From IMG/VR virus record IMGVR_UViG_3300045988_016256, positions 1-5,741 of that record: DNA of 5,741 nt; one strand, written 5' to 3'. The notes below the pieces were generated by a model. It saw only the letters and a program-made list of their open reading frames with translations. It had not been told where the DNA came from and searched no databases. The number at the start of each line of letters is the position of its first letter. Position 1 is the first letter of the stretch. The position numbers and the translations under genes were made by a program. Below, one piece after another: positions 368 through 543 of this stretch. This DNA comes from a virus.

Positions 368-543
368 TTTTCCACACTTTCAACATTTTCAACAGGTTTT
401 CCACGAAAAGTTGCACAAATGGTTTTGTGCATATTGCTATACTTTCAACAATTCAACAAGTTATCCACAAAAGTATCAACATCAAAATAATCCAGAAAAT
501 ATCGTTCCAAGGATAAAAATTCATGGTATTCAACATTTCAACA
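368..543. repeat. Iteron-like direct repeat array: three doublets of TTCAACA plus TTTTCCAC/TCCAC repeats.
   Basis: On the + strand:
- TTCAACA starts at 379 and 388, at 444 and 452, and at 529 and 537. These six perfect copies are paired 8-9 nt apart.
- A degenerate doublet TCAACA/TCAAAA lies at 476..487.
- CTTTCAACA occurs at 377 and 442.
- TTTTCCAC occurs at 368 and 397, and TCCAC at 464.
- CAACAAGTTA occurs at 454 and 563. Confidence 0.8.
412..431. repeat. 8-bp inverted repeat lying between iteron doublets 1 and 2.
   Basis: TGCACAAA (412..419) pairs with TTTGTGCA (424..431) around the loop TGGT (420..423). The pairing is perfect. Confidence 0.7.

What the first reader, a model, noticed from the sequence alone, without database searches (positions are those of the whole stretch)
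368..543. Iteron-like array: three TTCAACA doublets with flanking TTTTCCAC repeats around a central inverted repeat
Six perfect TTCAACA heptamers sit on one strand within 165 nt. They are always paired with an 8-9 nt start-to-start distance, and doublet starts are at 379, 444 and 529, with a degenerate doublet at 476. Longer shared contexts exist (CTTTCAACA twice, TTTTCCAC twice, CAACAAGTTA twice). An 8-bp inverted repeat (412..431) lies between doublets 1 and 2.

Such spaced direct repeats are classic binding sites for Rep or regulator proteins in plasmids and CRESS-DNA viruses. I do not know of them being described as part of Microviridae biology. I saw no further perfect copy in the coding regions by eye, but this needs a computed count.
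Basis: seen in the sequence. Interest (0 to 1): 0.65.

Follow-up and report, generated by a model that had tools for sequence, protein, structure and literature searches.

The report
Host-type replication origin inside a microvirus
The repeated TTCAACA words in this small gut phage match, in sequence and layout, the binding sites for the bacterial replication starter protein DnaA in the chromosome origins of gut Clostridia, so the phage appears to carry a compact copy of its host's origin-opening module, which seems undescribed for this phage family and points to its host.

Summary
All six perfect TTCAACA copies in the window lie at 379-543 on one strand, far beyond chance.

The window is a circular 5,686-nt gokushovirus genome with every gene on the minus strand. 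The repeats sit in the 246-702 non-coding region.

They are probably not virus Rep iterons. They belong to a roughly 225-nt cassette (368-592) made of:
- about 11 co-directional 9-mers fitting TTWTC(A/C)ACA, including the perfect DnaA box TTATCCACA;
- a terminal tandem box pair;
- a 4-nt GC spacer;
- CTA trinucleotide repeats (DnaA-trios);
- a 23-nt stretch that is 100% A+T.

This is the "basal unwinding system" of bacterial oriC. The same boxes and geometry occur between dnaA and dnaN in Oscillospiraceae and Ruminococcaceae genomes that carry no phage genes.

Sixty-nine gokushovirus genomes (VP4 identity 33-98%) carry the cassette. It sits in three positions or orientations, always with a 4-nt spacer.

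Best reading: a captured, streamlined host origin module bound by host DnaA, used to open and probably replicate the double-stranded phage DNA. The identity is strongly supported. The function is inferred. I found no published description.

The parts
368..376 (+). Box 1, TTTTCCACA. It matches the DnaA-box consensus TTWTNCACA exactly. Most relatives have TTTTCAACA here.
377..394 (+). Boxes 2 and 3, CTTTCAACA and TTTTCAACA, with a 9-nt period.
397..405 (+). Box 4, TTTTCCACG. Most relatives have TTTTCCACA and some have TTTTCAACA.
412..431 (.). Inverted repeat TGCACAAA-TGGT-TTTGTGCA in the spacer between box groups. As ssDNA it folds at -7.5 kcal/mol, z = -3.65. Other phage clades have a different small palindrome at this place.
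442..458 (+). Boxes 5 and 6, CTTTCAACA and AATTCAACA, with an 8-nt period.
461..469 (+). Box 7, TTATCCACA, the perfect E. coli-type DnaA box. Phage clades with VP4 near 58% and 35% identity have TTTTCAACA at the same position.
473..481 (+). Box 8, GTATCAACA, degenerate. Some relatives have a TTCAACA core here.
488..496 (+). Possible weak box 9, TAATCCAGA, with 2 mismatches. It varies among relatives.
527..543 (+). Proximal tandem box pair, TATTCAACA and ATTTCAACA.
   Evidence: PMC6669920
544..547 (+). 4-nt GC-rich spacer, CTCC. The spacer is 4 nt in 69 of 69 related phage genomes. Aligned host origins have GCCC, CCCC or CTCC.
   Evidence: PMC8287927
548..562 (-). DnaA-trios. The + strand reads CTA CTA TTA CGA CTA, so the minus strand reads 3'-GAT GAT AAT GCT GAT-5'. 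Relatives have 4-6 perfect CTA units.
   Evidence: PMC8287927; PMC7561715
570..592 (.). AT-rich tract, 23 nt and 100% A+T, the presumed DNA unwinding element. The box-pair-to-AT-tract region (527-600) has no ssDNA structure (-0.2 kcal/mol).
368..592 (+). The whole cassette. Its borders are set by blastn to distant phages (368 to 575-586), where it lies on the opposite strand relative to the genes.

Best explanation
The TTCAACA array is a cluster of host DnaA boxes. It belongs to a self-contained, roughly 225-nt oriC-type module (window 368-592) that gut gokushoviruses have captured from, or modelled on, the chromosome origin of their Oscillospirales (Clostridia) hosts.

Comparison shows the following.
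- The boxes fit (T/C)TTTC(A>C)ACA, with the same base frequencies as the boxes in host dnaA-dnaN intergenic regions.
- The last two boxes form a tandem pair, followed by a 4-nt GC spacer, CTA repeats (3'-GAT-5' DnaA-trios on the other strand) and an AT-only tract.
- This is the 'basal unwinding system' (BUS) layout of bacterial oriC.

The inferred mechanism has four steps.
1. On the double-stranded replicative form, host DnaA-ATP occupies the distal box groups (368-405, 442-481) and the proximal pair (527-543).
2. A DnaA filament grows from the pair onto the trio strand and stretches it.
3. The AT tract (570-592) melts.
4. The host helicase-loading proteins enter.

The most likely use is DnaA-dependent (theta-type) replication or maintenance of the replicative form, in addition to VP4-driven rolling-circle replication. 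A side effect would be that many phage copies soak up host DnaA.
For: Six perfect copies cluster on one strand. Perfect DnaA boxes are interleaved among them.

TTCAACA and TTCCACA or TTATCCACA swap at the same positions among relatives.

A structured box pattern has a chance expectation of about 2 (my estimate: 596 billion bases, both strands, six gap combinations, 21 specified bases, uniform composition). Sixty-six of the 80 listed titles are Clostridia, mostly Oscillospiraceae, Ruminococcaceae or Ruminococcus. None of the loci holds VP1 or VP4.

Twenty-one of the 120 loci lie next to dnaA and/or dnaN. Pfam confirmed DnaA and DnaN flanks.

Host intergenic regions end with box pair + GCCC/CCCC + CTACTACTACTA + AT-rich + dnaN, and they align with the phage cassette.

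The phage and host box logos are nearly identical: position 2 is T in 81% and 96%; position 6 is A in 92% and 90%, and C in 8% and 10%.

Sixty-nine phage genomes keep pair + 4 nt + trios in three placements, with VP4 identity 33-98%. In all of IMG/VR this signature hit 69 contigs, 68 of them 4.4-6.2 kb (microvirus size) and one a chance coding match; 69 related genomes were confirmed as gokushoviruses by a VP4 match.

The cassette is the best-conserved DNA between the window and the most distant clade.

Host DnaA has (D/N)HST.. where the B. subtilis, E. coli and Aquifex structures have DHTTV..H. The changes fall at two residues listed as base-specific contacts, T435 and H439 (PMC7561715).

BUS definition and mechanism: PMC6669920, PMC8287927. 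C. difficile trio 5'-CACCTACTACTATTACTACTATGA-3': PMC7561715.
Against: No experiment shows that DnaA of these bacteria binds TTCAACA. C-to-A at box position 6 breaks the E. coli consensus TTWTNCACA, and several boxes are 2-3 mismatches from it.

About 100 of the 120 host hits are not at dnaA/dnaN, so another binder of the triple-box motif is not excluded.

Firmicute origins are bipartite, and C. difficile oriC2 alone did not unwind in vitro (PMC7561715). A single-part cassette may therefore not fire on its own.

All phage boxes point one way, while host origins have boxes on both strands.

A rolling-circle phage has no known need for a theta origin, so the use made of the opening is inferred only.
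Confidence: 0.62

Rival explanations
1. DnaA sink or sensor only. The boxes bind host DnaA, but the module never fires as an origin. Many replicative-form copies would titrate DnaA to shut down host chromosome initiation. Alternatively, DnaA occupancy would couple the nearby promoter (minus strand 261-234) to host growth state.
For: About 11 boxes per genome on a multicopy replicative form. The cassette lies 107 nt upstream of a perfect TTGACA-16-TGnTATAAT promoter. In one clade it lies directly upstream of VP4.
Against: Titration needs only boxes. All 69 genomes also keep the tandem pair, the exact 4-nt spacer, the CTA trios and an AT tract. That is the geometry required for unwinding (PMC6669920, PMC8287927). 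The cassette's distance and orientation to promoters are not conserved.
Confidence: 0.2
2. Virus iterons. VP4 (an HUH Rep) or a small virus protein binds the heptamers to position rolling-circle initiation or packaging, as in CRESS-DNA viruses and pMV158-type plasmids.
For: Direct repeats with an 8-9-nt period lie near hairpins downstream of the Rep gene. HUH Reps often use iterons (my knowledge).
Against: The heptamer does not change across VP4 identity of 33-98%. The array is inverted or relocated while the hairpins stay put. The same boxes, pair, spacer and trios occur at host dnaA-dnaN without any phage gene.
Confidence: 0.05
3. Sites for another host regulator. One candidate is a Spo0A-like response regulator, whose 0A box TGTCGAA differs from TGTTGAA by one base (my knowledge). 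It would gate phage development by host physiology, as in phi29.
For: There is a one-base resemblance to the 0A box, and 0A boxes overlap DnaA boxes in B. subtilis oriC (my knowledge). Many host triple-box sites lie away from oriC.
Against: The difference falls on a conserved base of the 0A box (my knowledge). The same boxes with trios occur in Thermotogota MAGs (L229, L234, L252, L303), and that phylum does not form spores (my knowledge). The box pair directly abuts DnaA-trios. Boxes toggle to canonical DnaA boxes.
Confidence: 0.05
4. No function: an assembly chimera or a recently acquired neutral piece of host DNA.
For: The cassette resembles host DNA.
Against: It is present in 69 independent IMG/VR contigs and in GenBank records from several studies, at the same site within clades. 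The window closes as a circle through a 55-nt overlap. Boxes, spacer and trios are conserved while inter-box spacers diverge. The genome is only 5.7 kb.
Confidence: 0.03

Closest known systems
Basal unwinding system (BUS) of bacterial oriC: B. subtilis incC DnaA-box #6/#7 + DnaA-trios + AT-rich region, and C. difficile oriC2
   Same: A tandem DnaA-box pair, a ~4-bp GC spacer, three or more 3'-[G/A]A[T/A]-5' repeats and an adjacent AT-rich tract, plus a distal box group upstream. The order is the same as dnaA-boxes-trios-DUE-dnaN in the hosts (PMC6669920, PMC8287927, PMC7561715).
   Different: It sits in a 5.7-kb ssDNA phage, not next to dnaA/dnaN. It is about 225 nt, against 350-870 nt for host intergenic regions. 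All boxes are co-directional and there is no second (upstream-of-dnaA) half. The box core is TTCAACA rather than TCCACA.
oriC minichromosomes, and plasmid or phage origins that use DnaA boxes as helpers (pSC101, P1, F, RK2, lambda; my knowledge)
   Same: An extrachromosomal replicon carries host DnaA boxes.
   Different: Those plasmids and phages pair DnaA boxes with their own initiator and iterons. Here no separate theta-type initiator (a plasmid RepA- or lambda O-like protein) was detected. VP4 is a rolling-circle Rep and the cassette looks like a complete chromosomal-type unwinding unit.
Rep iterons of CRESS-DNA viruses, geminiviruses and rolling-circle plasmids
   Same: Short direct repeats in doublets near an origin-like non-coding region of a small circular ssDNA replicon that encodes an HUH Rep.
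   Different: Those iterons co-vary with the Rep and keep a fixed geometry to the nick-site hairpin. Here the repeats are invariant across very different VP4s, are mobile relative to the hairpins, and are shared with host chromosomes.
phiX174-type origin (30-bp gene A protein site inside gene A; my knowledge)
   Same: Same virus family and same kind of initiator.
   Different: The phiX174 origin has no repeat array, no DnaA boxes and no trios.

Membership tests
oriC basal unwinding system (BUS) | One or two DnaA boxes in tandem immediately upstream of the trios | tested here: met
   TATTCAACA and ATTTCAACA at 527-543. The same pair is present in 69 phage genomes and in host dnaA-dnaN regions. 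That TTCAACA is a DnaA box is inferred from host origin context.
oriC basal unwinding system (BUS) | Short GC-rich spacer (about 4 bp) between the proximal box and the first trio | tested here: met
   CTCC at 544-547. The spacer is 4 nt in 69 of 69 phage genomes. PMC8287927 gives 4 bp on average.
oriC basal unwinding system (BUS) | At least three trinucleotide repeats 3'-[G/A]A[T/A]-5' (middle A) | tested here: met
   Minus strand 3'-GAT GAT AAT GCT GAT-5' at 548-562, so four of five fit. Relatives have 4-6 perfect GAT units. Definition from PMC7561715 and PMC8287927.
oriC basal unwinding system (BUS) | AT-rich unwinding element next to the trios | tested here: met
   570-592 is 100% A+T, and the region has no ssDNA structure.
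oriC basal unwinding system (BUS) | Distal DnaA-box group upstream of the proximal pair | tested here: met
   Boxes at 368-405 and 442-481. PMC6669920 describes a distal and a proximal subregion.
oriC basal unwinding system (BUS) | ATP-DnaA binds the boxes, forms a filament on the trios and separates the strands | not testable with these tools
   Needs EMSA, footprinting and a strand-separation assay with DnaA from an Oscillospirales host.
Chromosomal oriC | Located at the chromosome origin, typically beside dnaA/dnaN | tested here: not met
   It lies between VP4 and the next transcription unit of a gokushovirus. It works like oriC but is not a chromosomal oriC.
Rep-specific iterons (CRESS-DNA viruses, RCR and theta plasmids) | Repeat sequence is specific to, and co-varies with, the replicon's own Rep | tested here: not met
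   Same heptamer with VP4 identity 33-98%, and in host chromosomes without phage genes.
Rep-specific iterons (CRESS-DNA viruses, RCR and theta plasmids) | Fixed position and orientation relative to the nick-site hairpin | tested here: not met
   Only the array is inverted in L065, L068, L069 and L140, and it is moved upstream of VP4 in another clade, while the hairpins keep their place or are absent.
Rep-specific iterons (CRESS-DNA viruses, RCR and theta plasmids) | Binding by the replicon's Rep | not testable with these tools
   Needs EMSA with VP4.
Spo0A 0A boxes | Heptamer TGTCGAA (TGNCGAA), in spore-forming Firmicutes | tested here: not met
   The heptamer is TGTTGAA, differing at the conserved C. 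The same boxes with trios occur in Thermotogota MAGs. The consensus is from my knowledge.

The most novel reading that the evidence does not exclude
These gut gokushoviruses would be facultative DnaA-dependent minichromosomes. Their double-stranded form would fire a host-type origin and replicate in theta mode, in step with the host's own initiation control. That would give an ssDNA lytic-type phage a plasmid-like carrier state without integration. The origin cassette would be a mobile module swapped between distant phage lineages and tuned to the variant DnaA box of Oscillospirales.
Probability: 0.3. Interest if true: 0.9.

Novelty: new variant of a known kind. Interest (0 to 1): 0.8.

Why it matters
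Microviridae are the textbook rolling-circle phages, and their replication is thought to depend on their own Rep plus host elongation factors. A conserved, mobile, complete DnaA-box, DnaA-trio and AT-tract module in a whole group of abundant gut gokushoviruses would add a host-initiator-dependent step to that scheme.

It also offers a mechanism for the long-suspected persistence of gut microviruses.

It gives a sequence-based host assignment (Oscillospiraceae/Ruminococcaceae-type Clostridia) for phages whose hosts, to my knowledge, are unknown.

As a by-product it exposes a lineage-specific DnaA box, TTTTCAACA. This box goes with changes at two DnaA base-contact residues. Origin-prediction tools that search for TTATCCACA with few allowed mismatches could under-call it (inference).

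All of this can be tested with standard DnaA binding and unwinding assays.

Tried and rejected
- **Plasmid collection (blastn, distant mode) with 360-580.** Only weak 27-37-nt Acinetobacter matches, not related.
- **Rfam on 200-760.** Only sub-threshold hits, tpke11 at 25.5 bits against a gathering score of 43.
- **Triple-heptamer scan of viral contigs.** All non-microvirus hits were simple 9-nt tandem repeats, mostly within apparent coding sequence, unrelated to this array.
- **Canonical-box version of the module in viral contigs (TTATCCACA...CTACTACTA).** Eighty hits, within about twofold of my rough chance estimate of 40, and no microvirus BUS.
- **Coding reading of the + strand ORFs 175-516 and 411-692.** Rejected. 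They lie opposite to all genes. The region is inverted or relocated in relatives. The longest stop-free stretch across the non-coding region varies from 57 to 149 aa among close relatives.
- **Promoter reading of the array.** Rejected, because the array works in both orientations. The real promoter is at 261-234 on the minus strand.
- **Single-strand (complementary-strand origin) reading.** Disfavoured, because the cassette occurs on either strand relative to the genes.
- **Literature.** No hit for gokushovirus or Microviridae with DnaA box(es), and none for oriC-like + bacteriophage + DnaA boxes. Two papers mention Microviridae and iterons together, judged irrelevant from their titles. None of the 20 top-listed TTCAACA + DnaA papers (93 in all) looked relevant by title; the one I opened used the word only in a primer. 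A host-range literature search was badly designed and uninformative.

Full report
**What the window is.** The first and last 55 nt are identical, so the sequence is a circle of 5,686 nt. All long ORFs are on the minus strand and match gokushovirus proteins:
- VP1 capsid F (2607-4328, Pfam Phage_F, E = 6e-142);
- Rep VP4 (703-1722);
- scaffold VP3 (4325-4822);
- an ORF5-like protein (4797-5186).

Close relatives in GenBank are 'Gokushovirus WZ-2015a' and Microviridae sp. from human, monkey and pig faeces. Nothing is annotated under the non-coding region in those records. The finding lies in the only large non-coding region, 246-702.

**Check of the observation.** TTCAACA occurs six times, at 379, 388, 444, 452, 529 and 537. 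All copies are on the + strand, with none elsewhere on either strand. Shuffles expect 1.12 copies. In 2,000 Markov simulations no 7-mer exceeded four copies in 170 nt. The longer shared words and the 412-431 inverted repeat are as described.

TTTTCCACA (368-376) and TTATCCACA (461-469) match the DnaA-box consensus TTWTNCACA exactly. All eleven 9-mers fit TTWTC(A/C)ACA with at most two mismatches.

**Conservation in related phages.** Eighty IMG/VR relatives were found through VP4. All those with enough downstream sequence carry the array, including a clade with only 57-58% VP4 identity. Within the alignment, TTCAACA, TTCCACA and TTATCCACA replace one another at the same positions. This indicates one binder that tolerates A or C at box position 6.

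In L065, L068 and L069 only the ~220-nt array is inverted, while the flanking hairpins keep their orientation. In a clade with 33-41% VP4 identity the array lies upstream of VP4, with different flanks.

Blastn of the whole window against these distant genomes finds the cassette (368 to 575-586) as the best DNA match. The match is on the opposite strand relative to the genes. The array is therefore a self-contained, orientation-independent module. That argues for a function on double-stranded DNA, and against a promoter, an ORF or a single-strand signal.

**The turn: the motif belongs to the host.** I scanned one genome per bacterial species with TTCAACA-N(1-2)-TTCAACA-N(2-4)-TTNTCNACA. My estimate of the chance expectation is about 2 (596 billion bases, both strands, six gap combinations, 21 specified bases, uniform composition). 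The scan stopped at its 120-locus limit.
- Sixty-six of the 80 listed records are Clostridia. Where a family is named, it is nearly always Oscillospiraceae, Ruminococcaceae/Ruminococcus or Acutalibacteraceae.
- Many hits are on contigs of 100-400 kb, and two are isolates.
- None contains VP1 or VP4.
- Twenty-one of the 120 loci lie beside dnaA and/or dnaN. Pfam confirmed DnaA (Bac_DnaA, Bac_DnaA_C) upstream and the beta clamp downstream in the loci tested.

These dnaA-dnaN intergenic regions are full of TTCAACA boxes with some TTCCACA. Those printed in full end, just before dnaN, with a tandem box pair, GCCC, CCCC or CTCC, CTACTACTACTA and an AT-rich tract.

**The phage cassette has the same ending.** TATTCAACA and ATTTCAACA (527-543) are followed by CTCC (544-547). 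Then come CTA CTA TTA CGA CTA (548-562) and 23 nt of pure A+T (570-592). Phage cassettes and host origins align over 130-150 nt at about 72% identity.

Box logos from 120 phage boxes and 80 host origin boxes are nearly the same. Position 2 is T in 81% and 96%. Position 6 is A in 92% and 90%, and C in 8% and 10%.

**What this layout is.** It is the 'basal unwinding system' of bacterial oriC. In that system a pair of DnaA boxes guides ATP-DnaA onto adjacent DnaA-trios (3'-GAT-5'), where a filament stretches one strand and opens the duplex. A distal box group raises the local DnaA concentration (PMC6669920, PMC8287927).

The published search rules are a ~4-bp GC spacer and at least three NAN repeats. 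The phage element meets them.

The C. difficile trio, 5'-CACCTACTACTATTACTACTATGA-3' in the dnaA-dnaN region (PMC7561715), is almost the phage sequence.

**Spread and specificity.** Sixty-nine gokushovirus genomes carry pair + spacer + trios, and the spacer is 4 nt in all 69. There are three placements:
- downstream of VP4 with boxes antisense to the genes (57 genomes);
- downstream of VP4 with boxes sense (4 genomes);
- upstream of VP4 with boxes sense (8 genomes).

In all of IMG/VR the exact signature hits 69 contigs. Sixty-eight are 4.4-6.2 kb (microvirus size) and one is a chance match inside a coding region. The 69 related genomes above were each confirmed as gokushoviruses by a VP4 match.

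**Is TTCAACA really a DnaA box?** This is inferred, not shown. Four points support it:
- its place in the dnaA-dnaN origin;
- the pair directly abutting the trios;
- the toggling with canonical boxes;
- a change in the host DnaA recognition helix.

Sixteen Clostridia-type DnaA proteins beside such origins were readable at this motif, and all 16 read (D/N)HST(M/I).. there. The solved B. subtilis, E. coli and Aquifex proteins read DHTTV..H. The substitutions fall at T435 and H439, two of the residues listed as base-specific contacts (PMC7561715, citing Fujikawa 2003). A Bdellovibrio chance hit keeps DHTTV. The same boxes with trios in Thermotogota MAGs argue against a sporulation regulator.

**How it most likely works.**
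1. Host ATP-DnaA loads on the boxes of the double-stranded replicative form.
2. It extends from the 527-543 pair onto the minus-strand trios.
3. It melts 570-592.
4. That gives the host helicase loaders access.

Steps 1-3 follow from the established BUS model. That the phage uses the opening for theta-type replication or maintenance of its replicative form is my inference. I prefer this over a pure DnaA sink because the unwinding geometry is conserved in every genome, and titration would not need it.

Three cautions apply. Firmicute origins are bipartite, and C. difficile oriC2 alone did not unwind in vitro (PMC7561715). All phage boxes point one way, unlike host origins. About 100 of the 120 host hits are not near dnaA/dnaN.

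**Novelty.** No paper in the searched library links Microviridae or gokushoviruses with DnaA boxes, and none combines 'oriC-like', bacteriophage and DnaA boxes. The two papers that mention Microviridae and iterons together were judged irrelevant from their titles. The element type is known. Its presence as a mobile cassette in ssDNA phages, and the variant box, appear to be new.

Noticed in passing
window 650-690: Strong hairpin just after the VP4 stop (-14.3 kcal/mol, z = -7.3). Its loop is conserved (TTACTTGATAG) while the stems differ between clades with compensatory changes. The loop reads CTTGATA on the + strand, antisense to the genes. That is the nick-site core of phiX174 and pC194-type Reps (my knowledge). 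On the gene strand it also looks like a terminator (hairpin + ATTTTATT). It may be the rolling-circle origin, but the strand does not fit the usual sense-strand rule.
   Followed up: partly
window 593-636 (paired stem; repeat arms reported as 586-610 and 615-639): An 18-bp GC-rich hairpin of alternating purine and pyrimidine (CATGCACGTGCGTGCGCG-ATTA-...; -21.8 kcal/mol, z = -4.8). It directly abuts the AT tract. It is kept, with compensatory changes, in several clades. GC-rich words related to its arms flank the cassette and could have mediated the inversion. The Rfam tpke11 hit here is below threshold.
   Followed up: partly
window 261-234, minus strand: Perfect sigma-A/sigma-70 promoter, TTGACA-16 nt-TATAAT with an upstream TG (12 of 12). 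It is conserved in relatives. It overlaps the ATG (245) of the listed 73-aa ORF 24-245, so that ORF's start is probably wrong.
   Followed up: partly
window 288-327: Nested stem-loop GTCATGC...GGCGC-GGT-GCGCC...GCATGAC. It is highly conserved in the window clade and in the clade with 46% VP4 identity. Function unknown.
   Followed up: no
window 1-55 and 5687-5741: A 55-nt terminal direct repeat, the assembly overlap of a circular 5,686-nt genome.
   Followed up: yes
window 691-706: Small palindrome TGACAC-CAAA-GTGTCA spanning the VP4 stop codon. GGTGTCAC is conserved on the gene strand after VP4 in several clades.
   Followed up: no
whole window: The coding (minus) strand is strongly A-rich. 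The + strand is T-rich, with AT skew of -0.3 to -0.5 over the genes. The non-coding region 400-700 reverses the skew. Which strand is packaged has not been established for this group.
   Followed up: no
host loci L300 and L317 (and about 100 of L200-L319): The triple box TTCAACA-nn-TTCAACA-(g/a)agtt-TTCAACA recurs at many chromosomal sites away from dnaA/dnaN in Oscillospirales, for example just upstream of an mraZ-like ORF. This may be a DnaA regulon or another binder.
   Followed up: partly
host loci L209, L210, L241, L251, L263, L267, L269, L271, L277, L296, L298, L301, L304, L313: DnaA of these Clostridia has (D/N)HST(M/I).. in the recognition helix instead of DHTTV..H. The base-contact residues T435 and H439 (E. 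coli numbering) are replaced. This goes together with TTTTCAACA-type boxes at their origins.
   Followed up: partly
host loci L229, L234, L252, L303: Thermotogota MAGs (Athalassotoga, Mesoaciditoga; L303 was not identified by title) carry the same TTCAACA boxes, tandem pair and CTA-type trios. L234 gave the longest alignment (153 nt) and the highest score among host loci against the window's own cassette.
   Followed up: no
L442 about 560-610: An unrelated gokushovirus (VP1 41% identical) has a hairpin with a perfect TTATCCACA in its stem (TTATCCACAGGGC...GCCCTGTGGGTAA). It recalls the DnaA-box hairpin of the ABC-primosome 'A site' (my knowledge).
   Followed up: no
L161, L180, L125, L191, L195, L174 (inside VP4): In the clade with 33-41% VP4 identity, the VP4 gene contains a sense-strand tandem CTTTGATAAGCTTCTTGATAA. 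This is a phiX174-like position for a nick site inside the Rep gene.
   Followed up: no
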